The notes beneath the pieces are model-generated. The model saw only the letters and a list, made by a program, of their open reading frames with translations. It did no database searches and had not been told where the DNA came from. Below, piece by piece: positions 9,428 to 32,000 of a stretch of DNA of 32,000 bases; within the stretch, counting starts at the first letter, position 1; the number at the start of each line of letters is the position of its first letter. The position numbers were made by a program, and so were the translations under genes. This DNA is from Rhodospirillaceae bacterium (GTDB taxonomy: Bacteria > Pseudomonadota > Alphaproteobacteria > UBA6615), in the NCBI GenBank assembly GCA_002724635.1, contig PBPM01000086.1, positions 13,772-45,771 of the forward strand, in the 5' to 3' direction.

Positions 9428-9523
9428 CCTTGCGTCGCGGCACCTAAAACCGCGCCGATCCTTACCGCTCCTTAACCATCCTCGCGTATCATGGCGGCAT
9501 CTGGATCGGTTTTGCAGCCATGA

Positions 9524-9712: not shown

Positions 9713-9736
9713 CCCGGATGCGGCCCCACTCTCCGC

Positions 9737-12089: not shown

Positions 12090-12114
12090 TGTCTAACCCA
12101 TCAACGTTCGGCCG

Positions 12115-14069: not shown

Positions 14070-14075
14070 GGTTTG

Positions 14076-17071: not shown

Positions 17072-17088
17072 CGCCTCTCGCTGGCCTA

Positions 17089-17107
17089 GCGTTCATTTCA
17101 TGAACGC
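17089..17107. promoter_or_regulatory. third GTTCA-N5-TGAAC palindrome (perfect 8-bp arms GCGTTCAT-ttc-ATGAACGC)
   Basis: It lies 18 nt after the flippase-like stop and about 145 nt upstream of tonB. It has the same half-sites as 14031-14069. It could also act as a hairpin terminator, but no T-tract follows. Confidence 0.4.
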
Positions 17108-17250
17108 CTTTCGAGGCGGACGGTTTGATCGCGTTGCTCGCTTCGTGGCGGTCGCTTCACCCCGAACAGCGGTAGCATGTCCGCACACCGACGCTAGAGC
17201 CGGTTGCTTGACCACCTCTGATTGGGCCCGAATGACCCATTTGTTGTGCG

Positions 17251-17964: not shown

Positions 17965-17970
17965 CGCCAC

Positions 17971-19881: not shown

Positions 19882-19995
19882 CCTAAGCTCACCACACGAC
19901 TTGAAAAGCAACCCATTTGTTAGCTGGGGTGGCACTGATATGATCATCCTCCACTCATATAGGCGCGTTAGGATGCAACGGACACCCCCACTTCA

Positions 19996-20829
19996 ATGAG
20001 CGTTGTCGCGACCCTCCGCCGCCTGCGTCACGGACCCTTGCGCTTTCTATCGCCGGTCTGGACACCGCTGGGAAATTTCTATCGCAGTTGCCTTTCCCGG
20101 GGCGGCTCGTCCTTCACGTCACTCCATCGCATCGGCCGATATGGACCGTTTCGGATGTCGGGAGAGTTCGCGTTCAGCAATTTCGAGAATTGGGGTAATG
20201 CGCATAATAGTGGCTTCGAATTCTGCATCGAAGCCAGCCGCGGCAAAACCTGCGTGCTCGATATCGGCGCCCATATTGGACTGGTCTCGTTGCCGTTGAG
20301 CCAGATGGTCGCGCCCGACGGCCGGGTGTTCGCTTTCGAACCTGCAACCGCGAACCGTGCCGCCCTGAAGCGGCACCTCGAACTCAACGCGATCACCAAT
20401 GTCGAGGTGGTCACGCAACTGGTCGGGGATACGGATAACGCAGACATCGTTCTGTTCGAGCATGCCAATGTCAGCGGCATGAACACCCGCGCTCCGTTGA
20501 AATCTGGCGCTGAGTATATTGAGACCCGCCATCGGCAGCTTACCATTGATAGCTTCTGCCGCGAACGAGGGCTTGAACCCGACGTCATCAAGATCGACGT
20601 CGAGGGTGCGGAGTTCGCGGTTCTCGAGGGCGCGCGCGAAATACTCGCTACGTCGCGACCAGTCCTCGTGGTCAGTATCCATCCTCAGCATCTAAAGGCA
20701 CTGGGGCGGAACGCGGACGAACTGCGCGCACTTGCGGCGGCTTCCGACTACGCGGTATCCGACACTGACGGAAACACCGTCAAAACCTTCCAACTGGACG
20801 AGTACGTTCTCCAACCGATTGGTAAGTGA
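19996..20829 (+). CDS. FkbM-family SAM-dependent methyltransferase (copy 1)
   Basis: VLDIGAHIGLVSL, VFAFEPATANRAALKRHLELN and DVIKIDVEGAEFAVLEGAREIL are present. Confidence 0.87.
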   Translation: MSVVATLRRLRHGPLRFLSPVWTPLGNFYRSCLSRGGSSFTSLHRIGRYGPFRMSGEFAFSNFENWGNAHNSGFEFCIEASRGKTCVLDIGAHIGLVSLPLSQMVAPDGRVFAFEPATANRAALKRHLELNAITNVEVVTQLVGDTDNADIVLFEHANVSGMNTRAPLKSGAEYIETRHRQLTIDSFCRERGLEPDVIKIDVEGAEFAVLEGAREILATSRPVLVVSIHPQHLKALGRNADELRALAAASDYAVSDTDGNTVKTFQLDEYVLQPIGK

Positions 20830-21785
20830 CCCGAATGTTGTCGAGCATATATACGACCTTGCGCGACCGCGGCGCGTCGACGCTGATCCGCGCCATCGGC
20901 AACCAGGCTGTGGCCATGGTGCATAGCAAACTTCTCGGGCGACGGTTTCTAGAGAAAAGCATTCACAACTACCGGATGCTGATTGACCTCGAGGACCCTG
21001 GTATCAGCCGCTCGCTTCTTCTGTTTGGCACCCGCGAGGTAGACCACAAGATTATGCTAGAGCAGGTTACGAAACCCGGTATGACCGTATTCGATATTGG
21101 CGCCAATATTGGATACTACGCTCTTATGGAACTGGGCCTGATCGGGCCCGAAGGCCGCATGCTGGCAATCGAGCCCTCACCGTCGAACATTGCGCTGTTA
21201 CAGCGCAATCTAAACCTAAATAACGAGGGGGACCGGGTCACAGTTCTCGGGGGTGCAGTCTCCGACAAGCCCGGTACCGCATCCTTCCACCTTTCGGCAC
21301 ACTCCAATCTAGGCACCTTTCATGCCGATGGCAGCGCGGCGCACATGCTGAGTGGTGAACAGATACCTGTCCGCACTTACACGGTTCCCGAACTGGCACA
21401 GGAACATGGCGCGCCGGATCTAATCCGGATGGACGTCGAGGGCCATGAGGTCGAGGTCATTCGCGGCATGCTCGATGCGATCCGGTCCGGCACGATGCGC
21501 CCGACGATCATTTTCGAGACCCACCTCTCGCGCTACTCCGCCGAACATGACATGACGGGGGTACTCGAGGACCTGTTCGCCTGCGGCTACGGCATACCGC
21601 GCGCAGCCTCGTCTTGGCAGGAGGGTACCGCGCGCGTTGCGGAACGCGGATATAAAGGTTCGGCGCCAATTCACACGGACGGCGTCAAACGCGTGATCTT
21701 TGAGAACATCGGGAACGAAGACGCGATCGACTTCATCTGCCGGACCGGCGGCCTGCGCACCGTGGTGCTGGCGCCTGTCAGCTGA
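20826..21785 (+). CDS. FkbM-family SAM-dependent methyltransferase (copy 2)
   Basis: VFDIGANIGYYAL, MLAIEPSPSNIALLQRNLNLN and DLIRMDVEGHEVEVIRGM are present. A GTG start overlaps the upstream TGA (GTGA); an ATG at 20835 is an alternative. Confidence 0.87.
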   Translation: MTRMLSSIYTTLRDRGASTLIRAIGNQAVAMVHSKLLGRRFLEKSIHNYRMLIDLEDPGISRSLLLFGTREVDHKIMLEQVTKPGMTVFDIGANIGYYALMELGLIGPEGRMLAIEPSPSNIALLQRNLNLNNEGDRVTVLGGAVSDKPGTASFHLSAHSNLGTFHADGSAAHMLSGEQIPVRTYTVPELAQEHGAPDLIRMDVEGHEVEVIRGMLDAIRSGTMRPTIIFETHLSRYSAEHDMTGVLEDLFACGYGIPRAASSWQEGTARVAERGYKGSAPIHTDGVKRVIFENIGNEDAIDFICRTGGLRTVVLAPVS

Positions 21786-21796
21786 ACTAGCAACCC

Positions 21797-23389
21797 ATGC
21801 CAGCAAAGATTATCGGCGCGGAACGGTTCAGCTGGCGGCGCACGGCTGACGCGGGCGTCGAAACGCTAGCGACCGGCGACCCTGGGGCCGAGGCTGCGGT
21901 GCGGCATACACTCGGGCAGGGCTGCGCGGCACCGGCGGATCTCAGCGAGTCGGTCCGCGACGTCGAGGGCCATTTCGCCGTAATTGCGAAAGGTGGCACA
22001 ACGAGCTGTGCCATCGTCGATCATTGTCGCTCGTCGCCGATTTTCTTCACTAACGACGCAATCTCGAACGATGCACATCTGCTTCGCGCGGCGCAAAACC
22101 TGAACACGCCGGATCCGCAAGCCATTATGGACGCAGCGATGGCCGGCTTCGTAACTGGCGACCGAACGCTGTTCGCAAACCTGCGCCAGCTAACGGCCGG
22201 AAGCTTGGTAGTATGGCAGGACAACGATCCGCCGGAGGTAGTGCGATACCGCGATTACATGCCGACCGCGGTGGATTCGCGCCCCGAGGACGACCTTGTG
22301 GACGCTTTTCTCGCCGTGCTCGACGCGGCGACGGCACGAACCATCAGGGCGGCGAATGGGCGGCCGATCTGGGTCCCGTTGAGCGGAGGGCGCGATTCGC
22401 GGGTCCTACTCGCCAAGTTTGTGGAACATGGGTACGACAATCTCCATGCCTTCACCTACGGACCAAGGGGCAATGATGAGAAACGCGCCGCAAGGATCAT
22501 CGCCGAGCGCCTAGACGTTCGCTGGTCGTTCATGGCCAGCCACCCGGCCAGATTACGGCGTTTCTTCGCAAGTCCCGCACGAAACGATTACTGGGAGTAC
22601 TGCGACGGCCTCTCCGCCGTGCCGAACTTTCAGGACCTTCTCACCCTCCGGGCCTATCGTGAGCGCGGTATGCTACCCGACGACGCGATCTTGGTGAACG
22701 GCCAAACCGGCGACTTCATTTCCGGCGGGCATATCCCGGCAACGCTCATAGATGGCGACCCGAGTCCCGATAGACTGTTCGCGGCGATCGTCGGTAAGCA
22801 TTTCTCTCTATGGAACTCACTCAAGACCCCGGTAAAGCTTGATGCCCTGCGTGTAAGGGTCTTCGCCCAGCTGGGACTGCACGCCGATACTGAGCTCGAG
22901 CGCGACCATGCCGTTGCGCTGTATGAACAGTTCGAATTCGACGAACGCCAAGCAAAGTATGTGATCAACGGTCAACGCAACTACGAATTCCTCGGCCTGA
23001 ACTGGTCGCTGCCGCTTTGGGACAGGGCACTAGTCGAATTCTGGCGAAACGTGCCGGTTGAACAAAAGTTCCGTCAGAAGCTGTTCGCCACCGCACTTTC
23101 GCGCTGGAACTATCGCGGATTGTTCCGCGACTTCGACCCTATGGTCGGTCAGTGGTCGGGCCCGGCAAAGGCCCTGCTCATTCCGTCGCGGCTAATTCGA
23201 CTGACCCTGGGTCCTGCACGGCGCGACGCGTTCCTTCGTCGTATGCTCTATTTCGGCATGTATCGCGACCAGTACGCACCCTTCGGATATCCCGAGTTCC
23301 TGCGCCACGCAGGCGACCTGCGTAACCCGGTATCATTCCTGTCGCGCGAATGGCTTCGTGAACGTGGCCTCGATCGGGCGGCCTCGTGA
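21797..23389 (+). CDS. asparagine-synthase-like PP-loop amidoligase/amidotransferase lacking the N-terminal nucleophile Cys
   Basis: The PP-loop PLSGGRDSRVLL lies at 22382-22399. There is an AsnB-like N-domain relic (GHFAVIAKGG...DHCRSSPIFF), but the protein starts MPAKII rather than MCG. Confidence 0.78.
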   Translation: MPAKIIGAERFSWRRTADAGVETLATGDPGAEAAVRHTLGQGCAAPADLSESVRDVEGHFAVIAKGGTTSCAIVDHCRSSPIFFTNDAISNDAHLLRAAQNLNTPDPQAIMDAAMAGFVTGDRTLFANLRQLTAGSLVVWQDNDPPEVVRYRDYMPTAVDSRPEDDLVDAFLAVLDAATARTIRAANGRPIWVPLSGGRDSRVLLAKFVEHGYDNLHAFTYGPRGNDEKRAARIIAERLDVRWSFMASHPARLRRFFASPARNDYWEYCDGLSAVPNFQDLLTLRAYRERGMLPDDAILVNGQTGDFISGGHIPATLIDGDPSPDRLFAAIVGKHFSLWNSLKTPVKLDALRVRVFAQLGLHADTELERDHAVALYEQFEFDERQAKYVINGQRNYEFLGLNWSLPLWDRALVEFWRNVPVEQKFRQKLFATALSRWNYRGLFRDFDPMVGQWSGPAKALLIPSRLIRLTLGPARRDAFLRRMLYFGMYRDQYAPFGYPEFLRHAGDLRNPVSFLSREWLRERGLDRAAS

Positions 23390-24630
23390 TGCGCATTCTT
23401 TATGTATCACGACTGTTCAGCGGCCTCGCGGAAGGACTCCGCGACCGGCGCTGGGATCCGCGCGGCGTGCCGACCGTTTACCGGCTCCTCGAGGCGCTCG
23501 ACAAAACCGAACACGACCTGCGGGTCGTCTTCACCGTCAAGGACGATGCCGTCGACTGGCCCAGCAGGAAGACCTGCACCTTCCCGATCGAGGGCTTTGG
23601 GCGTGAGATCACGGTGGTACCCATGCGCCCACCGCTTCCCACCGCGTTCGGACGCGCACGGGGCTATCTCCGCGAGATCGGCCAGTATCGAGAGATCAGA
23701 CGTTTGTGCGACGACATCATGCCGGACATCGCCTATTTCGACCGCGTGAACATATACGCGGCATCGCTTCCCGCCCGCCGTAAGGCGGTGCCCGTCGTAT
23801 GGCGCATCATGGGGGTGCCGCCAGCCATGCACGACATGCTCGATCTTGCAGGACCGGTCGCGCGTATCACCCGCTGGGCCTATCGTGCACCATTCTCGAT
23901 GGCCCTGTGTTCGCGCGATGGTAGCGGCGGCGAGCAGTGGATGGAACGTGCGCTTGCGCCCGATACCCCGCGGCGCATGATGCTAAACGGTGTCGATCCT
24001 ATCGAGAATCCCTCCCTCGATGACCATATCCGCGACGCGGTATCAGGCCCGGAAACCAAGATCCTGTTCGTCGCACGGCTTGTGGAGGACAAGGGATGCC
24101 TAGAGTTTGTTGAGGCCGTGTCCGGTGCGCTCGATCGTGCACCGGGCCGGTTCCGCGCGATCGTTGCAGGCGACGGCCCTTTCGCCACTCAGATGCGTGC
24201 GCGTGCAGATGACGCCGGGCACGGGAAGCAGTTCCATTTCCTCGGGCAGGTGGCACATAATCAAATGCTGGGCCTTCAGCAGGCTTGCGATGTCTATGTG
24301 TCCCTAAACCGGATGTGCAACTTGACAAACGCCAACTTGGAAGCGATGAGAGCCGGTGTGTGCATGATCATCCCCACATCGCCCGGCACGCGCGGGATCG
24401 ACGTAGATACCGACGAACTCATGCCGGAGGACACCATCTTTCGCATCGCAAGCCCAGACGATGTCGCGGGCCTGCGCGAAGCGCTGGTTCATCTGGAATC
24501 CAACGCACAGGATCGGACGCGGCGCGCCCGAGCAATTGCCCTGCGGGCCGAGCAACTCATTCCGACTTGGGACGCGCGGATCACCTCGGAAATAGAGTTG
24601 CTCGAGCAGCTGACCGAGGCAGGGAATTGA
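23386..24630 (+). CDS. GT-B fold glycosyltransferase (GT4-like)
   Basis: KILFVARLVEDKGCLEFVEAV...VAGDGPF...FHFLGQV...ACDVYVSL...NANLEAMRAGVCMI. The start overlaps the upstream stop (GTG 23386 or ATG 23389). Confidence 0.83.
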   Translation: MMRILYVSRLFSGLAEGLRDRRWDPRGVPTVYRLLEALDKTEHDLRVVFTVKDDAVDWPSRKTCTFPIEGFGREITVVPMRPPLPTAFGRARGYLREIGQYREIRRLCDDIMPDIAYFDRVNIYAASLPARRKAVPVVWRIMGVPPAMHDMLDLAGPVARITRWAYRAPFSMALCSRDGSGGEQWMERALAPDTPRRMMLNGVDPIENPSLDDHIRDAVSGPETKILFVARLVEDKGCLEFVEAVSGALDRAPGRFRAIVAGDGPFATQMRARADDAGHGKQFHFLGQVAHNQMLGLQQACDVYVSLNRMCNLTNANLEAMRAGVCMIIPTSPGTRGIDVDTDELMPEDTIFRIASPDDVAGLREALVHLESNAQDRTRRARAIALRAEQLIPTWDARITSEIELLEQLTEAGN

Positions 24631-25760
24631 TGGGTATTCTGACTGCTCTTCGACGACGCATGCTCGCGGATCTTGATTCACGCCTCGCGCCACGTTTCCA
24701 CGAAACCTTCAATGCCGACCCGGTAACGATCTATGACGTTGGCGCGGCCGGCGGTGCGATCACGCCTTACCCGGACGGGCCCGCCGCATGGGCGCCCGTG
24801 GAGGGCTTCGAGCCACACCCGGTGAGTTTCCAGAATCTCGTGGATGCTGGTACGCTGGAACACGTCACGTTACACAATCTCGCGCTTACCAATAAGGACG
24901 GGCCGATTACCTTTTACGCCGGCCGATCGAAGCAACGAACGAAATCCTCGCTACGGTCGATCGAATACTTAGGTAGCGAGAGCGATGAGATCACAATCAA
25001 TGCGCTCAAGCTAGATTCTGCACCCCGGCAACTCGGAATCCGTCCGGCTAACTTCATCAAACTGGACACCGAAGGAACAGAGGATCTAGTCATACAGGGC
25101 GGCGAACGGATGTTTGCCGATGACATCCTCGGTGTACATACGGAGGTCGGTTTTTGGACCGAACAGTCCCGAGGCGTCCCGTTCTCCCAGATCGACAGCC
25201 ACCTCACCTCTCGTGGTTTTGTTCTGTTCGACCTGCAAATTAACCGTTCCGACATCCGCGTCCTGGGCGGACGCAAGGACAAGGTACGAAGCGGAGACGC
25301 GCTCTACTTCCGGAGCTTTGATCATCTCTGGTCACCCAACGGGGACCAGGCCGCCTTGCGGTCCAAATTGCTTAAGCTGATGAGTTTACTGGTCGGCTGG
25401 CGCTATCTGAACTACGCCTTCGAGCTCGCCGACTTCGGACGAACACACGACCTGCTGCAGGCCGAGGAGTTCGACGATATTGTCACGCCTTGGATACAAA
25501 CCAGTGATCTGTCGGATTGCATTCCGAACTTTCCGGGTCGCACCAGGCTCGCGCTTCTGTTTGATTCGCTGTCCTATGCGTTCTACCCGAGCATTAAGAA
25601 GGGCGTGCCCTATTCTTTCAACAGCCTTGGCAACCACTGGGTCGTGCGCACGGCGAAGAACGACCCGACGAGCGTATTCTTGCATTGCCCGGTGCTGGAA
25701 GCCGGCACCGTCAACCAATCCAAGACCATCCGTCTGGCACATGGCCATGACAACACTTGA
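24630..25760 (+). CDS. FkbM-family methyltransferase (copy 3) with a roughly 130-aa C-terminal extension
   Basis: The start MGILTAL (ATG at 24630) shares its A with the upstream TGA. IYDVGAAGG, GFEPHPVSFQNL and NFIKLDTEGTEDLVIQGGERMF are present. The longer ORF in the track starting at 24285 is read-through of the GT4 3' end. Confidence 0.8.
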   Translation: MGILTALRRRMLADLDSRLAPRFHETFNADPVTIYDVGAAGGAITPYPDGPAAWAPVEGFEPHPVSFQNLVDAGTLEHVTLHNLALTNKDGPITFYAGRSKQRTKSSLRSIEYLGSESDEITINALKLDSAPRQLGIRPANFIKLDTEGTEDLVIQGGERMFADDILGVHTEVGFWTEQSRGVPFSQIDSHLTSRGFVLFDLQINRSDIRVLGGRKDKVRSGDALYFRSFDHLWSPNGDQAALRSKLLKLMSLLVGWRYLNYAFELADFGRTHDLLQAEEFDDIVTPWIQTSDLSDCIPNFPGRTRLALLFDSLSYAFYPSIKKGVPYSFNSLGNHWVVRTAKNDPTSVFLHCPVLEAGTVNQSKTIRLAHGHDNT

Positions 25761-25792
25761 GTCGATCCGTCATGGTTAGGCTTTATTGATCC

Positions 25793-26530
25793 ATGCGAGC
25801 TTCCGACACCGCGAAATCACAGAATGCCCGCAGGGCCTGGGAGCGAAAAGCGTCGCTACGCGCGGTCTACAAGGATGTTTACAGACGTCTCGCCGAAAAA
25901 CAGAGGCCCGGCCCAACGATCGAGATTGGCGGCGGGTCGGGAAACTTCAAGAACTTTGCACCGGAAACAATTTCTACAGACATCATCGTGGCGCCATGGC
26001 TGGACGCGGTTACGGACGCGGTACAGCTCCCCTTCGCAGATGCATCAGTCGCAAACATCGTCCTGTTCGATGTTTTACACCACATCGAGTTCCCGGTCCG
26101 CTTTCTCGACGAAGCGGCCCGGGTGCTCGCACCCGGAGGCCGGGTCCTGCTTTCCGAGCCGGCCATTACGCCACTCAGCAACCTGTTTTATACCCACCTG
26201 CATCCCGAGCCAGTTGACGCCGAGGCAGATGTATTCGTGGCCGGAACACCGAACCCAAACCGCGACCCGTTCGATGCGAATCAGGCGATTCCCACACTGA
26301 TGTTCTTAAAACAGCGCGAGCGGTTCCGGGATCGCTTCCCGATATTCGATATAGTCGATGTTCGCTACCATAGCCTGCTCGCATATCCACTTACCGGCGG
26401 CTTCAGGAAATGGACGGTAATCCCGGCCACCATCGTGCCTGCGATGTTGTCGCTCGAATCGGTATTTATGCCACTACTCGGAAGGCTCATGGCCTTTCGT
26501 CTGATCGTCACGATCGAGCGGCGAAACTGA
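25793..26530 (+). CDS. class I SAM-dependent methyltransferase (Methyltransf_11-like)
   Basis: IEIGGGSGNF, LPFADASVANIVLFDVLHHI and LAPGGRVLLSEP are present. Confidence 0.85.
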   Translation: MRASDTAKSQNARRAWERKASLRAVYKDVYRRLAEKQRPGPTIEIGGGSGNFKNFAPETISTDIIVAPWLDAVTDAVQLPFADASVANIVLFDVLHHIEFPVRFLDEAARVLAPGGRVLLSEPAITPLSNLFYTHLHPEPVDAEADVFVAGTPNPNRDPFDANQAIPTLMFLKQRERFRDRFPIFDIVDVRYHSLLAYPLTGGFRKWTVIPATIVPAMLSLESVFMPLLGRLMAFRLIVTIERRN

Positions 26531-26676
26531 GACGCAAAGCTGTTATCAGCTAATCCCGTCCCAGCGGAAAAAAACGATGACAGCCGTGATCGCTTTGCGT
26601 ATTCGGAACAGCATTGGGCGCAAAGGTGTTCCCACCGGCAACGACACGGCTCCAAAAGGATGCATTGAAGGAAAAC

Positions 26677-27693
26677 ATGCCAGACAAGACCAACGACTCG
26701 ATTGACTGGAGCGGAAAGACCGTTCTGGTTACCGGTGGCACAGGTTCCTTTGGGCGCCGGTTCGCCGAAAAGCTGCTGTGCCGTTACAAGCTTAGAAAGC
26801 TCATCATCCTATCACGCGATGAACACAAGCAATACGATATGCAACAGTCCGAAGTTTTCAAGAACCGCGACGAACTTCGTTACTTCATCGGTGATGTGCG
26901 CGATCAGAGCCGCTTGCGCATGGCAATGCGCGGAGTGGATTGCGTCGTACATGCCGCCGCGCTCAAGCATGTGCCAGCGGCCGAGTACAATCCGTTCGAA
27001 TGCATACGTACCAACGTCAATGGTGCGGAGAATATTGTCTCTGCGGCGATTGAAACCGGAGTACCCAAGGTGGTCGCTCTTTCGACCGATAAGGCAGTGA
27101 ATCCGATAAACATCTACGGCGCAAGTAAGCTTGCGTCGGACAAGATCTTTGTAGCCGGGAATATGCTGGCCGCTGATGCGCCAACCCGGTTTGCAGTGGT
27201 GCGATACGGCAACGTGCTCGGCTCACGTGGTAGCATCATCCCCCTTCTGCGCCAGTTCGTCGCCGAGGGTCGCAAGAGCCTGCCCCTGACCGACGAACGC
27301 ATGACGCGTTTCTGGATTACTCTCGACCAAGGCGTCGATTTTGTTCTGTCGAGCGCTGGGCTCATGCGCGGTGGTGAAATCTTCGTTCCAAAGGTCCCCA
27401 GTATGAAGATCGTCGACATGATGGAAGCGATCGCCCCCGGTATTCCGAACGAGGTGATAGGCATCCGGCCAGGAGAGAAACTGCACGAGGTCCTCATCAG
27501 CGAGGACGATACAGCGATCGTACTGGACCTCGGCGATCGTTATGTCATTTGCCCAAACCACGACACGCGCATTCAGGCCTTTCACGAAAAGAACGGTGCA
27601 ACAGCCGTGGGGCAGGGCTTCCGATACGCGAGTGATGCAAACGACGACTGGCTCAACGCAGACAGACTCAAGGCACTAATCGGCGAGGAATAG
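26677..27693 (+). CDS. pseB: UDP-N-acetylglucosamine 4,6-dehydratase, PseB/FlaA1 type
   Basis: VLVTGGTGSFG, RYFIGDVRD, VHAAALKHVPAAEYNPFECIRTNVNGAENI, ALSTDKAVNPINIYGASKLASDK, VRYGNVLGSRGSIIP, MTRFWITLDQGV, GGEIFVPKVPSMKIVD and IGIRPGEKLHEV are collinear with Helicobacter FlaA1 as I recall it. The SD gaagga precedes the ATG at 26677. Confidence 0.9.
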   Translation: MPDKTNDSIDWSGKTVLVTGGTGSFGRRFAEKLLCRYKLRKLIILSRDEHKQYDMQQSEVFKNRDELRYFIGDVRDQSRLRMAMRGVDCVVHAAALKHVPAAEYNPFECIRTNVNGAENIVSAAIETGVPKVVALSTDKAVNPINIYGASKLASDKIFVAGNMLAADAPTRFAVVRYGNVLGSRGSIIPLLRQFVAEGRKSLPLTDERMTRFWITLDQGVDFVLSSAGLMRGGEIFVPKVPSMKIVDMMEAIAPGIPNEVIGIRPGEKLHEVLISEDDTAIVLDLGDRYVICPNHDTRIQAFHEKNGATAVGQGFRYASDANDDWLNADRLKALIGEE

Positions 27694-27872
27694 GCACCGC
27701 GACCCTATTCCCTCGGCGGACAGCGGATCCACCAGCTCCGGATTGCCAATCCGGAATCCAATTGCGATAAAGGCGGGACTCCAGTCGGTATCCGGCCGCA
27801 GAACTCCGTCGCCGGCATCGATTCTTTCGGGTGGGCTCGAGTCGGCAACCGGTCTGAGATCAAGGGGGTTTC

Positions 27873-29192
27873 ATGGCAGACAAAAGCAAGGCCCCGACCG
27901 TTTACATCGGGATGACCGCTGACATCATGCATCACGGTCTGATCAATGTTATCGAGGTCGGCCGCCAGCACGGCAGGGTGGTGATCGGGCTTATGACCGA
28001 TGGGGCCGTGTCCCGCTACAAGCCTCTCCCGTATCTTGAGTACGAACATCGTCGGCGAATCTTGGAAAACATCGTCGGTGTCGATGAGGTTGTTCCGCAA
28101 GAGGAATGGGATTTCGTCCCCAACCTGCGAAAGTTCAAACCAGAGATTGTGATCCATGGCGATGACTGGTGCGAGGGCCACCAGAAGATCTACCGAGATC
28201 GCGTCGTAGACGCCTTACGCGAATGGGGTGGCAAGTTGATCGAAGTCCCCTATACGCAAGGAGTCTCGACGCCGCGCTTCAATACCCAGCTGAGAGGCCT
28301 CGGCACGACATCCGAAATTCGCCGACAAAGCCTGCGGCGACACCTTGACTCTGGTGAGCTGATCCGGGTCATCGAGGTTCACAGTCCCCTCTGCGGCTTG
28401 CTTGCAGAGAATCTCGCCGTCAATCGGGAAGACAGCGTCGCGCGCTTCGAAGCAATGTGGGTTTCGAGCCTGACAGACTCGACAGTGCGCGGGAAACCCG
28501 ACATCGAACTAGTCGATACCAGCAGCCGAATTGCCGCCATCGACGCACTCTTTGAAGTGACCACCAAGCCCCTTATCTTCGATGGCGACACCGGCGGCTT
28601 GCCCGAGCACTTCGCTTTCACGATACGTACTCTGGAACGCCTAGGGGCATCCGCAATCATCATCGAGGACAAGACCGGCCCGAAACGAAACTCGCTCTTG
28701 GACGGCGATGGACACCACGTTCAGGAAGACATCGATATGTTCGCAGAGAAGATCGCGGTGGGCCGGAAGGCTGCTCTCACAGACGAGTTCATGATCATCG
28801 GCCGAATCGAGAGCCTTATACTTGGTGTCGGCATGGAAGACGCGCTGGTGCGCGCGCGCGCCTATGTGGCTGCCGGCGCAAACGGAATCATGATTCACAG
28901 CCGCCGTAAAACACCTGACGAGATCTTCGAGTTCTGCGACAAGTTCCGCGAGGCCGATCCGGACACGACGATCGTCGTTGTGCCTACCCAGTACAGCGTC
29001 GTCCGAGAATCCGAGCTGATCGAGCACGGGGTGAACATCGTGATCTATGCCAACCACCTCCTCCGAGCTTCATTCCCGGCGATGCGTGCAGTGGGCGAGT
29101 CCATTTTGCGCAACGGCCGCGCCATGGAGGCCGATGACATATGCCTGCCCGTGGACGAACTGCTCGGCATGATCCCTAATACCGTCTCATGA
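27873..29192 (+). CDS. pepM: fusion of a TagD-like cytidylyltransferase-fold domain and phosphoenolpyruvate mutase
   Basis: The N-terminal roughly 130 aa align to glycerol-3-phosphate cytidylyltransferase (EYEHRRRILENIVGVDEVVPQEEW, IHGDDW). The C-terminal domain carries the PepM-specific EDKTGPKRNS (EDKxxxxxNS) motif at 28665-28694. A strong SD (aaggggg) is present. Confidence 0.92.
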   Translation: MADKSKAPTVYIGMTADIMHHGLINVIEVGRQHGRVVIGLMTDGAVSRYKPLPYLEYEHRRRILENIVGVDEVVPQEEWDFVPNLRKFKPEIVIHGDDWCEGHQKIYRDRVVDALREWGGKLIEVPYTQGVSTPRFNTQLRGLGTTSEIRRQSLRRHLDSGELIRVIEVHSPLCGLLAENLAVNREDSVARFEAMWVSSLTDSTVRGKPDIELVDTSSRIAAIDALFEVTTKPLIFDGDTGGLPEHFAFTIRTLERLGASAIIIEDKTGPKRNSLLDGDGHHVQEDIDMFAEKIAVGRKAALTDEFMIIGRIESLILGVGMEDALVRARAYVAAGANGIMIHSRRKTPDEIFEFCDKFREADPDTTIVVVPTQYSVVRESELIEHGVNIVIYANHLLRASFPAMRAVGESILRNGRAMEADDICLPVDELLGMIPNTVS

Positions 29193-30349
29193 TCGAGCCT
29201 AACGCACTTCTCGATCAACTTTGCGCGGGCGGCATCGGATTTTTCACCGGTGTCCCCGACTCACTTCTGTCACCGCTCACATCGGCAATAGTCGCGCGGT
29301 TCCAAGACGGCGAGCATGTGGTCGCCGCGAACGAGGGAAGCGCTATCGCACTGGCAGCTGGACACCACCTCGCGACCGGTCAGACCGCATGCGTCTACCT
29401 GCAGAACTCCGGTCTCGGGAACGCCATCAACCCCCTGACCTCCCTGATGGATGAGGAGGTTTACGGAATCCCTGTTCTTCTGGTTGTCGGCTGGCGTGCC
29501 GAACTGAACGGCAATGAACAGCTCGCGGATGAGCCGCAACACCGCAAGCAGGGCAAGATCACGACGGGACTGCTCGATGTTCTCGGGATTCCCTACCTGA
29601 TCCTCGGACCTGACGGAATCGAGAACGGGTTGTCGGACGGCGTCGCCACCCTCATTTCTTTGGCGCAATCGGAGAACCGACCTGTCGCGCTCGTCGTGCG
29701 AAAGGGTGCCCTTGCCACCCTCACGACACCGTCAGGCGACTCCGTCGGCGTCATGACGCGAGAGGACGCGATCCGCGTTATTACAGAGACCGTCGGGCCG
29801 GAGATACCAATCGTTTCGACGACCGGGAAGGCATCGCGGGAGTTGTGGGAAATTCGCCGGCAAACCGATTTAGGAGAAGGTCGCCACGATGGGCAGGATT
29901 TTCTGACAGTCGGCTCGATGGGGCACGCCTCACAGATCGCTGCGGGCGTCGCGCTTGCAGATCGCGCGCGCGCCGTCCTATGTCTCGATGGAGACGGGGC
30001 CATGCTCATGCATCTCGGGGGCTTAGTCACCTCGGCGGCAATCCCTAACTACCGACATGTAGTTCTCAACAATGAGGTCCATGATTCGGTGGGCGGCCAG
30101 CCGACCAGCGGGGTTGGTCTCTCTCTAGCGCCGATAGCCGAGACATGCGGCTATGACTGGGTTCGTAGCGTTACCAGCCCGCGTGACCTGCCGGCTGCAC
30201 TCAAAGACATGCTGGCAGCGAATGGATCGGCGTTTCTCGAGATCATGGTACTGCCCGGCGCGCGAGCCGATCTCGGTCGGCCAAAGACCGCGCCGAAGGA
30301 CAGCAAGGCGGCGTTCATGACTCGCCTGAAGGACGGCTCTTCCGCCTAG
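29189..30349 (+). CDS. ppd: phosphonopyruvate decarboxylase (ThDP-dependent)
   Basis: GFFTGVPDSLLSPL at the N-terminus and the ThDP motif LDGDGAMLMHLGG...VVLNNEVHDSVGGQPT. An ATGA overlap joins it to pepM. Confidence 0.9.
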   Translation: MIEPNALLDQLCAGGIGFFTGVPDSLLSPLTSAIVARFQDGEHVVAANEGSAIALAAGHHLATGQTACVYLQNSGLGNAINPLTSLMDEEVYGIPVLLVVGWRAELNGNEQLADEPQHRKQGKITTGLLDVLGIPYLILGPDGIENGLSDGVATLISLAQSENRPVALVVRKGALATLTTPSGDSVGVMTREDAIRVITETVGPEIPIVSTTGKASRELWEIRRQTDLGEGRHDGQDFLTVGSMGHASQIAAGVALADRARAVLCLDGDGAMLMHLGGLVTSAAIPNYRHVVLNNEVHDSVGGQPTSGVGLSLAPIAETCGYDWVRSVTSPRDLPAALKDMLAANGSAFLEIMVLPGARADLGRPKTAPKDSKAAFMTRLKDGSSA

Positions 30350-31479
30350 CCGGCAGTTAGTCGTTCGAAAGCGCGCCGCGCGATCTGCCGTGCGATAAGG
30401 CCATCCGCATGACGAAGATTGTTGGCCGCGCGTGCTGGCGTAATCAGCGAATCTCCAAATGTATCGATGTCGTCAGCGGAGAGATGTCGAGCCATGACGT
30501 CACCGACACCGAGCGCGACCAGCCACCGTTCGAGTGTGTCGGGAACTGCATCGACGGCACACTCCAGCGCTTCGGCAACCGGCGCCAATCGTGCGGCGTC
30601 CTCCTCCTGATTAAAACGTGCAATTTCTGCCAAGGTGAAGCTGCATGCAAAACCGTGCGCGACACCGAAACGCGCGGTAAACGGATAGCTGATGGAATGT
30701 GCCAGCGCCGTCTGTGTCGTTCCCATGGCGAGTCCCGCCAGCAAGGCGGCCGTCTGCAGTGCGCCGCGTGCCTCGATATCCTTGGGCCGCGCTTCCGCGA
30801 CCGGCAGATACTTGTGGACCTGCGCGATCGCCTGAGCGGCAAGATAGTCGGTGAATATCGTATGCCGCCGGTTCCAGACAGCCTCGAGCGCATGAGACAC
30901 CGCATCGAGTGCTGTCGATCGGGTCAACTCGCTTGGCATGGTTATCGTCAGCGTAGGGTCCAAGATGGCATGACTCGGATAGAGACGCGGATCATTGATC
31001 GAATACTTTGTTCCGTCGTCACCCCATAGCGTCCCCCAGGGAGTCACCTCGGACCCTGTGCCCGCCGTGGTCGGCACCGCGATGATCGGAATTGGGAGTA
31101 TTTTCGCCGGCAGTGCGGCACCTTCGGAAAGATGATCGAGCAGGGGCGACATGTCGCCCCTGAGCGCCTTGAGTGCCACCATGCCCTTCGTCGCATCCAG
31201 CACGCTGCCCCCGCCCAGAGCGACGACCACCGACACATCGGGTATCTCCTCACTGAGTAAGGGCATCCGCGAGATCAACGGGTTCGGGTCAATATTGGAG
31301 ATAACCGCTGCGGGCGAACCAGCAATTGCCGCAATGCGAGCGTCGAAGTTTCTGTCTGCCCAGGAGCGGCTTGTAACCAGCGCCCAGTCCCGCCCGGCGA
31401 TGGCCGGACCAATGACCTCATCAAGCGCAGCCCCGTCGTGAACAGCGACTGGGCACCGGAACGGTGGCCTCAGAACCAA
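30346..31479 (-). CDS. group III iron-containing alcohol dehydrogenase, phosphonoacetaldehyde reductase (PhpC/FomC/Pdh)-like
   Basis: VVALGGGSVLDATKG, VPTTAGTGSEVTPW and the His-rich metal site LAHSISYPFTARFGVAHG are present. The apparent TTG start at 31479 overlaps the upstream cupin gene's stop. The function is inferred from the family and the pepM/ppd neighbourhood. Confidence 0.72.
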   Translation of the reverse strand: MVLRPPFRCPVAVHDGAALDEVIGPAIAGRDWALVTSRSWADRNFDARIAAIAGSPAAVISNIDPNPLISRMPLLSEEIPDVSVVVALGGGSVLDATKGMVALKALRGDMSPLLDHLSEGAALPAKILPIPIIAVPTTAGTGSEVTPWGTLWGDDGTKYSINDPRLYPSHAILDPTLTITMPSELTRSTALDAVSHALEAVWNRRHTIFTDYLAAQAIAQVHKYLPVAEARPKDIEARGALQTAALLAGLAMGTTQTALAHSISYPFTARFGVAHGFACSFTLAEIARFNQEEDAARLAPVAEALECAVDAVPDTLERWLVALGVGDVMARHLSADDIDTFGDSLITPARAANNLRHADGLIARQIARRAFERLTAG

Positions 31480-32000
31480 CGCTTGGTTTCCGCCAGCGCG
31501 CGGCTCCGACCGTCCGTTGCGAAGGTCGCGAATTCATCGAAGACTTCATCGACCAACTCGCCAGCAATCCGCGACATAGCAAGGCAGGCGCCCGCGGGGC
31601 CCTGCAGCCAATGCTCAACCATCGGGCGGATATAGGCGGAATCGCCCGGACCTATCGACGCGCTTCGACCATCACCCCAGAACAACTCGATATCCTGATC
31701 GCCATAGTTATAGAGATACTCATGGAGCTGATGCTGAAATCCCGGCCCGTCCGTATTTGCAGCACCGCCGAGCATCACAACGTTGAAGCCTCGCTGGCCG
31801 GGCTGATGTGGGGTCCGTGCGAGCTCCGACAATTCGCAAAAGGGTGCATTCGTGTCCGGAAACGGTCGTCGCTCGCTGCCGGCGAGATGGGTGATCGCAA
31901 CCTCGTTATCCTCGGCCATCGGAACAAACCAGAGGTCGCCGGGCTTGACCGCCAACGCAGCGCCCAGCACCGACAGCTCCTCGGCATTCGGCAGCAGGCC
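31470..32000 (-). CDS. C-terminal part of a cupin-fold protein, candidate 2-hydroxyethylphosphonate-utilising oxygenase (HEPD/MPnS/HppE superfamily); 5' end outside the window
   Basis: The frame is open to position 32000 (GLLPNAEELSVLGAALAVKPGDLWFVPM...). It has the cupin-like blocks HQLHEYLYNYGDQDIELFW and GPGDSAYIRPMVEH. It is translationally coupled to the Fe-ADH. The family assignment rests mostly on gene context. Confidence 0.5.
   Translation of the reverse strand, partial: GLLPNAEELSVLGAALAVKPGDLWFVPMAEDNEVAITHLAGSERRPFPDTNAPFCELSELARTPHQPGQRGFNVVMLGGAANTDGPGFQHQLHEYLYNYGDQDIELFWGDGRSASIGPGDSAYIRPMVEHWLQGPAGACLAMSRIAGELVDEVFDEFATFATDGRSRALAETKRWF

What the first reader, a model, noticed from the sequence alone, without database searches (positions are those of the whole stretch)
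27873..32000. Full PEP-to-2-hydroxyethylphosphonate module plus a cupin oxygenase inside a glycan locus
The window shows PepM with the diagnostic EDKxxxxxNS motif. It is joined by a 4-nt overlap to a ThDP phosphonopyruvate decarboxylase. A convergent two-gene unit carries a cupin protein and then a group III Fe-ADH. In characterised pathways (phosphinothricin phpC/phpD and the Nitrosopumilus methylphosphonate cluster pepM-ppd-pdh-mpnS) this exact enzyme set makes phosphonoacetaldehyde, reduces it to 2-HEP, and cleaves or rearranges 2-HEP with a cupin Fe(II) oxygenase. I see no 2-AEP transaminase in the window, so the flux is predicted to go to 2-HEP chemistry rather than to the common 2-AEP head group. 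Finding this module in an alphaproteobacterial polysaccharide-type locus, rather than a small-molecule antibiotic cluster, suggests a cell-surface phosphonoglycan.
Basis: partly seen in the sequence, partly recalled or inferred. Interest (0 to 1): 0.85.

Follow-up and report, generated by a model that had tools for sequence, protein, structure and literature searches.

The report
Marine methylphosphonate-making gene cluster, glycan-linked
This stretch of an uncultured marine Rhodospirillaceae genome encodes the known four-enzyme route from phosphoenolpyruvate to methylphosphonate (the compound whose breakdown feeds methane production in oxygenated seawater), set inside a sugar-coat locus, so it is a good new example of a known system, not a new kind of one.

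Summary
Window 27873-32000 encodes PepM (EDKTGPKRNS), Ppd joined by an ATGA overlap, a convergent Fe-alcohol dehydrogenase, and the last 176 codons of a cupin gene cut by the window edge. A near-identical Tara Oceans contig (L001) completes the cupin at 462 aa. It matches methylphosphonate synthase (6B9S, E 5e-75) and carries all five published MPnS-diagnostic residues, not the HEPD ones.

- PepM carries an N-terminal Fom1-type cytidylyltransferase domain, but its HxGH signature reads HHGL.
- The "two-gene unit" is the tail of a six-gene operon seen in close relatives: EptA/MCR-1-like membrane transferase, small membrane protein, TagF-like phosphotransferase, LicC/PntC-like cytidylyltransferase, MPnS, ADH.
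- The module sits between pseB and pseC-pseH-pseG-pseI, so it is nested in a pseudaminic-acid gene set.

Best reading: PEP is converted through 2-HEP to methylphosphonate, which is CMP-activated and esterified onto a surface glycan.

This matches the known Nitrosopumilus/Pelagibacter-type cluster, and MpnS with similar neighbourhoods is already reported in marine Rhodospirillales. I rate it a new member of a known kind. The link to nonulosonic-acid genes (10/44 MPnS loci against 1/79 controls) is the one possibly new lead.

The parts
27873..28310 (+). N-terminal cytidylyltransferase (PF01467, Fom1-type) domain of the fusion protein. Its HxGH signature reads HHGL at nt 27930-27941.
   Evidence: PF01467 scores 42.4 bits (cutoff 21). 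Best PDB match is 5X3D, the Fom1 CyTase domain, at E 6e-44 and 47% identity over 135 aa. HHGL contrasts with HxGH in 79 other fusions.
28317..29192 (+). PEP mutase (PepM) domain, with EDKTGPKRNS at nt 28665-28694
   Evidence: TIGR02320 scores 372 bits (cutoff 319.6). PF13714 E 4e-50. Motif located.
29189..30349 (+). Phosphonopyruvate decarboxylase (Ppd), ThDP-dependent, joined to PepM by a 4-nt ATGA overlap
   Evidence: TIGR03297 scores 425.8 bits (cutoff 312.5). GDG...NN motif and the overlap are shown.
30346..31479 (-). Group III Fe-alcohol dehydrogenase, the probable phosphonoacetaldehyde reductase that forms 2-HEP
   Evidence: PF00465 and PF25137 match. TIGR03405 is the best family at 277.5 bits, below its cutoff, with the next family at 151 bits. 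The metal-ligand pattern D192-x3-H196 and H261-x13-H275 is present. A homologue lies within 10 kb of MPnS in 35 of 44 loci.
31470..32000 (-). C-terminal 176 codons of methylphosphonate synthase (MPnS). The gene runs off the window; the full length is 462 aa on L001:12282-13670(-).
   Evidence: The frame is open to the window edge. The fragment matches 6B9S at E 2.4e-17. The full-length protein matches 6B9S at E 5e-75 and has the MPnS residues H, Q, F, I, H.
26677..27693 (+). PseB (UDP-GlcNAc 4,6-dehydratase, inverting), 180 nt upstream of PepM on the same strand
   Evidence: TIGR03589 scores 482 bits (cutoff 407.8). The gene call is 338 aa.
19996..26530 (+). Same-strand glycan-tailoring genes: FkbM methyltransferases (19996-20829, 20826-21785, 24630-25760), AsnB-like amidotransferase (21797-23389), GT4 glycosyltransferase (23386-24630), SAM methyltransferase (25793-26530)
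   Evidence: Pfam and NCBIfam matches

Best explanation
This is a methylphosphonate (MPn) biosynthesis and tailoring locus of an uncultured marine Rhodospirillaceae bacterium.

Proposed steps:
1. The PepM domain isomerises PEP to phosphonopyruvate.
2. Ppd decarboxylates phosphonopyruvate to phosphonoacetaldehyde.
3. The Fe-ADH reduces phosphonoacetaldehyde to 2-hydroxyethylphosphonate (2-HEP).
4. The 462-aa cupin Fe(II) oxygenase is an MPnS. It cleaves the C1-C2 bond of 2-HEP to give MPn.
5. A LicC/PntC-like cytidylyltransferase encoded directly upstream of mpnS makes CMP-MPn. The Fom1-like domain on PepM may also act on 2-HEP, but its HxGH motif is degenerate.
6. A TagF-like phosphotransferase moves the methylphosphonyl group from CMP onto a sugar hydroxyl.
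7. An EptA/MCR-1-like membrane transferase acts at the outer face of the membrane.

The acceptor is a methylated glycan that probably contains pseudaminic acid, built by the flanking pse, GT4, FkbM and AsnB-like genes.

What is shown: family assignments, diagnostic residues, gene order, and conservation of that order across relatives. What is inferred: substrates of the ADH, the two nucleotidyltransferases and the two transferases; the identity of the acceptor; and the cell-surface location.
For: - Core enzymes. PepM and Ppd score above their equivalog cutoffs. The EDK and ThDP motifs and the ATGA overlap are present.
- ADH. Its best family is the phosphonate-associated Fe-ADH, and the metal ligands are present.
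- Oxygenase. The full-length protein matches MPnS 6B9S at E 5e-75 and SaHEPD 6B9R at E 2e-61. H, Q, F, I, H occupy the five discriminating positions. F and the Fe ligands are invariant, and I is at least 90% conserved, across 40 homologues, many of which JGI names methylphosphonate synthase. The criteria are in PMC9381506 Supplementary Table S2, and the Tyr-Gly motif as the class II HEPD marker is in PMC8976061.
- Downstream genes. L001 shows the NTase and part of the TagF-like gene directly downstream of mpnS in the same population as the window.
- Conserved order. The same six-gene operon and flanking pse genes appear in four related populations: L006, L004, L136/L137 and the contig of P0003.
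- NTase. Its best PDB match is LicC 1JYK (E 2e-11), and it also matches PntC 6PD1. A homologue lies within 10 kb of MPnS in 35 of 44 loci, directly upstream wherever gene order was mapped, Nitrosopumilus included.
- 394-aa protein. The AlphaFold model has pLDDT 90. Its top fold match is TagF 3L7K (E 2e-13), and 22 of 24 homologues match PF04464.
- 506-aa protein. The model has pLDDT 86. Its top fold matches are MCR-1, EptC and EptA. It has N-terminal transmembrane helices and Asp/Thr/Asp-His at the positions of the metal and nucleophile residues.
- Pse genes. PseB and PseC score above their equivalog cutoffs.
- Literature. Nucleotidyl activation is the rule in phosphonate tailoring (PMC6697681). 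MpnS neighbourhoods of this kind are described for marine bacteria and archaea (PMC9381506).
Against: - No enzyme here has been assayed.
- The ADH is below the TIGR03405 cutoff (277.5 against 423.7 bits).
- The catalytic half of MPnS is not in the window and is read from a near-identical contig.
- The transferase genes and pseC-pseI are seen only in relatives at 66-100% amino-acid identity. L001 ends inside the TagF-like gene.
- The fused CyTase domain lacks the second histidine of HxGH (HHGL), so one of the two activation enzymes may be inactive.
- No CMP-pseudaminic acid synthetase (PseF) was found nearby.
- PseG and PseI score below their cutoffs.
- EptA-type enzymes normally use lipid donors, which does not fit simply with a CMP-donor route.
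- No export or polymerase genes (Wzx, Wzy, ABC transporter) were identified in the window.
Confidence: 0.75

Rival explanations
1. The oxygenase is a HEPD rather than an MPnS. The locus would then make hydroxymethylphosphonate, or stop at 2-HEP, and the glycan would carry HMP or 2-HEP esters instead of MPn.
For: SaHEPD 6B9R also matches strongly (E 2e-61). Class II HEPD shares the His/Gln/His ligands. A Fom1-like HEP cytidylyltransferase domain is fused to PepM. 2-HEP esters are known in marine polysaccharides and in Stackebrandtia exopolysaccharide (PMC8942020).
Against: The two second-sphere positions that separate the enzymes read Phe and Ile (MPnS) and not Tyr and Gly (class II HEPD) or Glu (class I). 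The Fom1-like domain has a degenerate HHGL motif. 2-HEP esters alongside MPn esters are not excluded.
Confidence: 0.1
2. The phosphonate is attached to a protein-linked pseudaminic-acid glycan (flagellin or another surface glycoprotein) and not to a capsule, LPS or exopolysaccharide.
For: Pse is best known as a flagellin O-glycan (background knowledge). The module is nested between pseB and pseC-pseI. ATP-grasp and PhyH genes of the kind that tailor nonulosonic acids follow pseI in L136. Phosphonylated glycoproteins are proposed for Prochlorococcus SB (PMC8931226, bioRxiv version read).
Against: No Maf-type transferase, flagellar gene or oligosaccharyltransferase was found in the window or the extended loci. 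GT4, three FkbM methyltransferases, a UDP-sugar dehydrogenase and PAPS-synthesis genes fit a polysaccharide better.
Confidence: 0.2
3. MPn first enters a lipid (a phosphonolipid made from CMP-MPn). The EptA/MCR-1-like enzyme then transfers it from that lipid to a periplasmic acceptor such as lipid A/LPS core or a glycan, as in phosphoethanolamine transfer.
For: The 506-aa protein resembles full-length MCR-1 and EptA, including the transmembrane domain and the Thr nucleophile pattern. It recurs with MPnS in 7 of 44 loci, Nitrosopumilus included.
Against: No CDP-alcohol phosphatidyltransferase or other lipid-synthesis gene is in the operon. A TagF-like enzyme that typically uses CDP/CMP-activated donors directly is present. 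This would be a sub-mechanism and not a full alternative.
Confidence: 0.12
4. The module makes a soluble small-molecule phosphonate natural product (an antibiotic-like compound) that merely sits next to glycan genes.
For: The PepM-Ppd-ADH-cupin set is shared with phosphinothricin- and fosfomycin-type pathways, and the Fom1-like fusion is known from fosfomycin biosynthesis.
Against: No NRPS, peptide-ligase, radical-SAM methyltransferase, resistance or exporter gene is adjacent to the module. The closest ATP-grasp gene lies beyond pseI in L136. The operon partners are a LicC-like NTase and TagF-like and EptA-like transferases. The module interrupts a pse gene set, and this arrangement is conserved in five related populations.
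Confidence: 0.04

Closest known systems
Methylphosphonate biosynthetic cluster of Nitrosopumilus maritimus SCM1 / Pelagibacter ubique HTCC7211 (pepM-ppd-pdh-mpnS with a nucleotidyltransferase and a sulfatase-family gene; Metcalf 2012 and Born 2017, cited from my own knowledge and through PMC9381506)
   Same: It has the same four core enzymes and an MPnS with the same Fe ligands and the Phe/Ile second sphere. A LicC-like NTase lies next to mpnS. Sulfatase-family and TagF-like genes recur, including in Nitrosopumilus locus L047. The predicted product is a glycan-bound MPn ester.
   Different: - The host is a roughly 60% GC marine Rhodospirillaceae MAG.
- MPnS is only 33-37% identical to the archaeal enzymes.
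- PepM is fused to a PF01467 domain, which was not detected at PepM in the Nitrosopumilus loci.
- The module is inserted between pseB and pseC.
- The genes are arranged as two convergent operons.
Marine Rhodospirillales, Pelagibacterales and other bacterial MpnS neighbourhoods surveyed by Lockwood et al. 2022 (PMC9381506)
   Same: The taxon group, habitat (Tara Oceans) and neighbour types (glycosyltransferase, nucleotidyltransferase, 'arylsulfatase A') are the same, and the residue criteria are met.
   Different: That survey does not describe the pse nesting, the TagF-like or EptA-like fold assignments, or the HHGL variant, as far as the searched text shows. MPnS in this clade is only about 50% identical to the other Rhodospirillaceae MPnS sequences.
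Fom1 of Streptomyces wedmorensis (bifunctional HEP cytidylyltransferase-PepM, PDB 5X3D)
   Same: The domain order is the same (PF01467 N-terminal, PepM C-terminal). The CyTase domains are 47% identical. Both sit in pathways that pass through 2-HEP.
   Different: The signature HPGH of Fom1 reads HHGL here. There is no Fom3, FomD or Fom4 (HppE) partner. The context is glycan tailoring and not fosfomycin biosynthesis.
Phosphonyl-tailoring (Pnt) pathways with PntC/LicC cytidylyltransferases for 2-AEP surface decoration (Rice et al. 2019, PMC6697681)
   Same: The logic is the same: make the phosphonate, activate it as a CMP conjugate, and transfer it to a surface glycan. Having both a Ppm-fused and a separate nucleotidyltransferase in one cluster is a described pattern.
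   Different: The head group here is MPn (and possibly 2-HEP), not 2-AEP. There is no AEP transaminase. The candidate transferases are TagF-like and EptA-like and not LicD-like.
2-HEP/HMP phosphonoglycans of Stackebrandtia nassauensis and Glycomyces (cited through PMC8942020)
   Same: A PhpC-type reductase route leads to a hydroxyalkylphosphonate that ends up on an exopolysaccharide.
   Different: Those hosts are Actinobacteria. Their oxygenase, where present, is HEPD-type, and the product is not MPn.

Membership tests
PEP mutase (PepM/Ppm) | EDKxxxxxNS catalytic motif | tested here: met
   EDKTGPKRNS at aa 265-274, nt 28665-28694
PEP mutase (PepM/Ppm) | Score above the TIGR02320 equivalog cutoff | tested here: met
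   372.2 bits against 319.55
Phosphonopyruvate decarboxylase (Ppd/AepY) | Score above the TIGR03297 cutoff, plus the ThDP-binding GDG...NN motif | tested here: met
   425.8 bits against 312.5. GDGAMLMH...VVLNN at aa 268-295.
Phosphonoacetaldehyde reductase (PhpC/FomC/Pdh; TIGR03405) | Score above the TIGR03405 equivalog cutoff | tested here: not met
   277.5 bits against 423.7. It is still the best family by a wide margin, with the next at 151 bits.
Phosphonoacetaldehyde reductase (PhpC/FomC/Pdh; TIGR03405) | Fe-ADH metal ligands (Asp, His, His, as listed in PMC9381506 Table S2) and synteny with pepM/ppd | tested here: met
   D192-x3-H196 and H261-x13-H275 are present. The gene overlaps mpnS by 10 nt and converges on ppd. 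A homologue lies within 10 kb of MPnS in 35 of 44 loci.
Methylphosphonate synthase (MPnS) | Full-length bicupin homologous to Nitrosopumilus MPnS | tested here: met
   462 aa. Matches 6B9S at E 5e-75 over residues 10-462. The window itself holds only the last 176 residues.
Methylphosphonate synthase (MPnS) | Fe ligands His148/Gln152/His190 | tested here: met
   H154, Q158 and H195 on L001. All three are invariant in 40 homologues.
Methylphosphonate synthase (MPnS) | Second-sphere Phe162 and Ile/Val184, which fix the Gln ligand (PMC9381506 Table S2) | tested here: met
   F168 and I189. F is invariant and I is at least 90% conserved in 40 homologues. Read from L001 and not from the window.
Methylphosphonate synthase (MPnS) | Conversion of 2-HEP to MPn | not testable with these tools
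   Needs an enzyme assay
2-HEP dioxygenase (HEPD) | Class II Tyr163/Gly184, or class I Glu ligand | tested here: not met
   The aligned positions read Phe and Ile.
HppE epoxidase | A roughly 198-aa protein with an HTH plus a single cupin and close sequence similarity | tested here: not met
   Only a weak local match: 5U55 at E 1.3e-5 and 27 bits, 1ZZ6 at E 0.003. The protein is 462 aa.
Fom1-type HEP cytidylyltransferase domain (PF01467) | PF01467 domain N-terminal to PepM, closest to Fom1 CyTase | tested here: met
   PF01467 scores 42.4 bits against 21. 5X3D matches at E 6e-44 with 47% identity.
Fom1-type HEP cytidylyltransferase domain (PF01467) | HxGH nucleotide-binding and catalytic signature | tested here: not met
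   HHGL (CAT CAC GGT CTG, nt 27930-27941). Fom1 has HPGH and TagD has HWGH. 79 other fusions have HxGH, and only this clade has HxGL.
LicC/PntC phospho(no)-alcohol cytidylyltransferase (gene just outside the window) | PF12804/PF00483 fold, closest to LicC/PntC | tested here: met
   L001:13676-14440 and L006:8736-9500. PF12804 scores 36.6-38.7 bits against 27. 1JYK matches at E 2e-11 and 6PD1 at E 2e-6. Substrate not tested.
TagF/TagB-type CDP-alcohol phosphotransferase (relatives only) | PF04464 membership and a TagF-like GT-B fold | tested here: inconclusive
   The protein itself misses PF04464, but 22 of 24 homologues match it. The top fold match is TagF 3L7K at E 2e-13 and TM 0.58. The profile search against PDB gives only TarL at E 0.08.
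EptA/MCR-1-type membrane phospho-form transferase (relatives only) | N-terminal transmembrane helices plus an alkaline-phosphatase-superfamily domain with a Thr nucleophile and metal ligands | tested here: met
   PF00884 scores 30 bits against 25. Top fold matches are 9NWW, 6A82 and 5FGN. Helices span residues 4-150. The motifs FDAYAR, ASTKLS and QSDHG are present, and there is no C/S-x-P-x-R sulfatase motif. Donor and acceptor are unknown.
Pseudaminic acid pathway (PseB, C, H, G, I, F) | PseB and PseC score above their equivalog cutoffs | tested here: met
   PseB 482 bits against 408 (window). PseC 460 bits against 424 (L006).
Pseudaminic acid pathway (PseB, C, H, G, I, F) | PseG, PseI and PseH are identifiable | tested here: inconclusive
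   PseG 88 bits against 154. PseI 243 bits against 340, with NeuB scoring higher at 281. PseH is identified only as Acetyltransf_3.
Pseudaminic acid pathway (PseB, C, H, G, I, F) | CMP-Pse synthetase (PseF) is present | tested here: not met
   No CTP_transf_3-type gene was found in the window, L004, L006 or L136. It may lie elsewhere in the genome.

The most novel reading that the evidence does not exclude
Methylphosphonate, perhaps together with 2-HEP, is esterified onto pseudaminic acid or another nonulosonic acid, or onto a glycan built around one. Phosphonylated nonulosonic-acid glycans would then be a main molecular carrier of the MPn that fuels aerobic methane production in the ocean.

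The supporting observations are:
- In this clade the MPn module is inserted between pseB and pseC-pseI.
- NeuB/PseI-like genes lie within 10 kb of mpnS in 10 of 44 species-level loci. These span Alphaproteobacteria, Flavobacteriales, SAR86 and Nitrosopumilus.
- Only 1 of 79 CyTase::PepM loci without mpnS has such a gene (Fisher p = 1.3e-4).
- No paper in the searched library links the two.

Caveats: habitat and phylogeny confound the comparison, no PseF was found, and co-location does not show that the phosphonate sits on the nonulosonic acid itself.
Probability: 0.25. Interest if true: 0.65.

Novelty: new member of a known kind. Interest (0 to 1): 0.4.

Why it matters
MPn esters in marine dissolved organic matter are the accepted substrate for methane production in oxygenated surface waters, yet few producers are known and the molecule that carries MPn has never been defined. 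This locus adds a high-GC marine Rhodospirillaceae lineage, recovered repeatedly in Tara Oceans and other marine assemblies, to the candidate producers. It also offers a complete and testable parts list: synthesis enzymes, a LicC-like activating enzyme, TagF-like and EptA-like transferases, and pse genes for a candidate acceptor. The basic finding, an MPnS cluster in a glycan locus of a marine alphaproteobacterium, is already in the literature, so the value is incremental unless the link to nonulosonic acids holds.

Tried and rejected
- NCBIfam on the cupin. It gave no family for either the fragment or the full-length protein. Pfam gave only a sub-threshold Cupin_2 match. Identification therefore relied on PDB sequence search and residue inspection.
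- Born et al. 2017. The paper could not be read by DOI or by PMC id. The residue criteria were taken from Lockwood 2022 Table S2 and PMC8976061 instead.
- Sequence searches of the 394-aa and 506-aa proteins against PDB. The single-sequence searches gave nothing useful, and the profile searches were marginal. Structure prediction plus Foldseek was needed.
- Extending the window's own strain past L001. L137 comes from the same sample as L002 but is only 85.5% identical to L001 in the overlap, so it is a related strain and not the continuation.
- PseF. I looked for it in the unassigned ORFs of the window and L004 and found none.
- Promoter and terminator scan of 26400-32000. Results were at the level expected by chance.
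- HppE-type epoxidase and class I/II HEPD. Both were considered for the cupin and rejected on residues and architecture.
It is aspartate-aminotransferase-like and not PhnW-type. It is absent from L004 and lies five genes from the phosphonate genes. A PalB-like role on phosphonopyruvate is not excluded.

Full report
**Observation**

- The 439-aa product of 27873-29192 (+) scores 372 bits on the PEP mutase equivalog TIGR02320 (cutoff 319.6). It carries EDKTGPKRNS at residues 265-274.
- Its stop codon overlaps the start of the next gene in ATGA at 29189-29192.
- That next gene (29189-30349, 386 aa) scores 426 bits on the phosphonopyruvate decarboxylase equivalog TIGR03297 (cutoff 312.5). It has a GDG...NN ThDP motif.
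- On the opposite strand, 30346-31479 encodes a 377-aa iron alcohol dehydrogenase (PF00465 and PF25137). Its best NCBIfam match is the phosphonate-associated Fe-ADH model TIGR03405, at 277.5 bits. This is below the 423.7 cutoff but far above the next family at 151 bits. The expected metal-ligand pattern is present.
- The frame at 31470-32000 (-) stays open to the window edge. Only the last 176 residues of the cupin protein are in the window. Even so, they match methylphosphonate synthase 6B9S (E 2.4e-17) and HEPD 6B9R (E 2e-12).

**Completing the cupin gene**

An exact-sequence look-up of Ppd found a 56.9-kb Tara Oceans scaffold, L001. It differs from the window at 2 of 1001 overlapping bases.

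On L001 the cupin gene is 462 aa. The full protein matches Nitrosopumilus MPnS at E 5e-75 and Streptomyces albus HEPD at E 2e-61, both over essentially the whole length. HppE matches only weakly.

The published criteria for separating the enzymes are as follows. MPnS has H148, Q152, F162, I/V184 and H190. HEPD has A/Q152, I/Y162 and E/G184 (Lockwood 2022, Supplementary Table S2). Tyr-Gly is diagnostic of class II HEPD (PMC8976061).

In the HMMER alignment the query has H154, Q158, F168, I189 and H195 at those positions. In an alignment of 40 homologues the three ligands and the Phe are invariant, and the Ile is at least 90% conserved. JGI labels many of these homologues methylphosphonate synthase.

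I therefore call the enzyme an MPnS. The caveat is that the diagnostic half of the protein lies outside the window.

Residues 6-140 of the PepM protein form a PF01467 cytidylyltransferase domain (42 bits, cutoff 21). Its best solved relative is the CyTase domain of Fom1 (5X3D, E 6e-44, 47% identity). Fom1 is the fosfomycin enzyme that converts 2-HEP to CMP-HEP (PMC6697681).

Such fusions are common. About 24% of Ppm enzymes carry PF01467.

The HxGH signature, however, reads HHGL here (CAT CAC GGT CTG, nt 27930-27941). Fom1 has HPGH, TagD has HWGH and human ECT has HYGH. Among 90 CyTase::PepM fusions from the fetched loci, 79 keep HxGH. Only the four loci of this clade, representing three populations, have HxGL. 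In related cytidylyltransferases both histidines matter for catalysis (my own knowledge of the GCT and CCT literature). The domain may therefore be impaired or altered.

**Surroundings**

- Upstream, on the same strand as pepM-ppd. The genes are two FkbM methyltransferases, an AsnB-like amidotransferase, a GT4 glycosyltransferase, a third FkbM methyltransferase, a SAM methyltransferase and PseB. PseB scores 482 bits on TIGR03589 against a cutoff of 408.
- Downstream of the window, on L001. The gene before mpnS is a 254-aa nucleotidyltransferase, and before that lies a gene cut by the contig end.
- In close relatives. Four related populations were examined: L006, L004 (identical to L007), L136/L137 and the contig of P0003. 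Their proteins are 59-100% identical in amino-acid sequence to those of the window clade. All four show the same layout:
 - pseI, pseG, (an aminotransferase in some), pseH and pseC run in one direction;
 - a 506-aa sulfatase-family protein, a roughly 100-aa protein, a 394-aa protein, the 254-aa NTase, MPnS and the ADH run in the other;
 - this second operon converges on ppd, the CyTase::pepM fusion and pseB.

The "two-gene unit" is therefore the end of a six-gene operon. The whole phosphonate module is nested inside a pseudaminic-acid gene set. PseC scores above its cutoff; PseG and PseI score below theirs. No PseF was found.

**The operon partners**

- The NTase's best solved relative is LicC (1JYK, E 2e-11). 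It also matches the PntC-AEPT fusion 6PD1.
- The 394-aa protein has no Pfam match of its own. However, 22 of 24 homologues match PF04464, the CDP-glycerol glycerophosphotransferase family. NCBI gives relatives that name. An AlphaFold model (pLDDT 90) has TagF 3L7K as its clear best fold match (E 2e-13).
- The 506-aa protein matches PF00884 above its cutoff. Its model (pLDDT 86) has N-terminal helices spanning residues 4-150. It best matches full-length MCR-1, EptC and EptA. Its conserved FDAYAR, ASTKLS and QSDHG stretches fit the metal-ligand and Thr-nucleophile pattern of that family. There is no C/S-x-P-x-R sulfatase motif. The residue correspondence to MCR-1 rests on my own knowledge of that enzyme.
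- The small protein has a signal-like N-terminus followed by one hydrophobic helix.

**Comparison across lineages**

A scan of one genome per species found 44 loci with at least half of an MPnS. The number of these with each partner within 10 kb was:

| Partner | Loci (of 44) |
|---|---|
| LicC-like NTase (directly upstream where mapped) | 35 |
| Fe-ADH | 35 |
| PepM | 23 |
| Ppd | 17 |
| NeuB/PseI-like gene | 10 |
| PF01467 domain at PepM | 9 |
| TagF-like protein | 8 |
| EptA-like protein | 7 |

The TagF-like and EptA-like genes also accompany MPnS in a Nitrosopumilus locus, L047. The NeuB-like hits span Alphaproteobacteria, Flavobacteriales, SAR86 and Thaumarchaeota.

As a control I fetched 80 CyTase::PepM loci from metagenomes. 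Of the 79 without MPnS, one has a NeuB-like gene, in a similar total amount of sequence (740 kb against 783 kb). Fisher's exact test gives p = 1.3e-4. This comparison is confounded by habitat, since many controls come from gut or rumen, and by shared ancestry among the MPnS loci. I treat it as a lead and not as a result.

**Most likely mechanism**

1. PEP is converted to phosphonopyruvate by PepM.
2. Phosphonopyruvate is converted to phosphonoacetaldehyde by Ppd.
3. Phosphonoacetaldehyde is reduced to 2-HEP by the Fe-ADH.
4. 2-HEP is converted to MPn by MPnS.
5. MPn is converted to CMP-MPn by the LicC-like NTase.
6. The methylphosphonyl group is transferred onto a sugar hydroxyl by the TagF-like enzyme.
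7. The EptA-like membrane enzyme acts on the outer face of the membrane.

The acceptor is a methylated glycan, probably containing Pse, made by the flanking genes. The family assignments, diagnostic residues and conserved gene order are shown. All substrates, the acceptor and the cellular location are inferred.

The Fom1-like domain could add a second head group (CMP-HEP), which would fit the co-occurrence of MPn and 2-HEP esters in marine polysaccharides (PMC8942020). Its HHGL motif argues for caution.

**Comparison with what is known**

This is the pepM-ppd-pdh-mpnS logic of Nitrosopumilus maritimus and Pelagibacter. Lockwood et al. already list Rhodospirillales among marine bacteria with MpnS. 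They describe neighbourhoods with glycosyltransferase, nucleotidyltransferase and "arylsulfatase A" genes and interpret them as synthesis of (methyl)phosphonate esters.

The window's proteins are already in GenBank, from a Rhodospirillaceae MAG (MBO22429 to MBO22454). PepM and Ppd are correctly named there. A JGI record in the same 90% cluster is named [quoted passage not shown].

I therefore rate the finding a new member of a known kind. Four points appear not to be described in the library I could search:
- the nesting in a pse gene set;
- the fold-level reassignment of the "sulfatase" as an EptA-like transferase;
- the TagF-like partner;
- the clade-specific HHGL motif.

Absence from that library does not prove novelty.

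**Verdict**

Interest is moderate at 0.4. The locus is ecologically relevant and provides a testable parts list, but it would not surprise a specialist. The most novel reading still open is that MPn is carried on nonulosonic-acid glycans. I give that about a 25% chance.

Noticed in passing
window 27930-27941: The HxGH signature of the PepM-fused cytidylyltransferase domain reads HHGL. Of 90 CyTase::PepM fusions checked, 79 keep HxGH, and only this clade (window/L001, L006, L004=L007) has HxGL. The rest of the domain is well conserved (47% identity to Fom1 CyTase).
   Followed up: partly
L007-L055 (GTDB MPnS loci) against L056-L135 (metagenome PepM loci): NeuB/PseI-like genes lie within 10 kb of mpnS in 10 of 44 loci, including Nitrosopumilus L040/L044, SAR86 L031/L053 and Flavobacteriales L017. 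Only 1 of 79 CyTase::PepM loci without mpnS has one (Fisher p = 1.3e-4). The comparison is confounded by habitat and phylogeny.
   Followed up: partly
L008, L009, L011-L013, L016-L019, L022-L024, L026: Many Rhodospirillaceae and other alphaproteobacterial MPnS loci carry mpnS with the NTase and/or the Fe-ADH (most have all three) but no PepM or Ppd within 10 kb. Either pepM lies elsewhere or phosphonoacetaldehyde comes from another source, such as 2-AEP salvage.
   Followed up: no
L006:7133-7435, L004:7619-7942, L014:12530-12847, L012:14173-14400, L047:13328-13534: A small protein of about 70-105 aa always lies next to the EptA-like gene. It has a signal-like N-terminus, then A-Y-[IL]-D-x-G, one hydrophobic helix and YW. 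It is conserved from Alphaproteobacteria to Nitrosopumilus and matches no family.
   Followed up: partly
window 11295-14013: A PAPS_reduct-family gene (assigned as cysD) and a fused GTPase + APS kinase gene (assigned as cysNC), which together would make PAPS, sit next to the glycan genes. They hint that the glycan may also be sulfated.
   Followed up: no
window 7769-11014: A heparinase II/III-like protein (7769-9427) and a UDP-glucose/GDP-mannose dehydrogenase-family gene (9737-11014, minus strand) lie at the edge of the glycan region.
   Followed up: no
window 14073-19947: A winged-helix regulator and a NusG-like protein (14073-15228) may form an operon-specific antiterminator pair. They are followed by an LPG_synthase_TM-domain membrane protein, TonB and a TonB-dependent receptor, all ahead of the glycan operon.
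   Followed up: no
window 1-32000: GC content is 0.61-0.70 in the housekeeping part (1-10 kb: gpsA, acs, rsmB, rpe). It drops to 0.55-0.61 across most of the glycan and phosphonate region (11-29 kb; two 1-kb windows reach 0.61-0.63). This fits a variable or horizontally exchanged surface-glycan island.
   Followed up: no
L006:2068-3282, L136:6419-7633, L136:1-4309: A class I/II (aspartate-aminotransferase-like) aminotransferase sits between pseH and pseG in L006 and L136 but is absent from L004. In L136, a 115-aa protein, a PhyH-family dioxygenase, an ATP-grasp ligase and two unknown proteins follow pseI. These may tailor the nonulosonic acid.
   Followed up: no
L001, L006, L136/L137: Related strains are mosaic. 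L006 is 89.7% identical to L001 in nucleotides over 9.3 kb, yet its TagF-like protein is 100% identical over the part L001 contains. L137, from the same sample as L002, is only 85.5% identical to L001 in their 867-nt overlap. This suggests recombination within the locus among co-occurring populations.
   Followed up: partly
window, L004, L006, L136: No CMP-pseudaminic acid synthetase (PseF, CTP_transf_3 type) was found anywhere near the pse genes. A 247-aa ORF after pseI in L004 (836-1579, minus strand) matches no family.
   Followed up: partly
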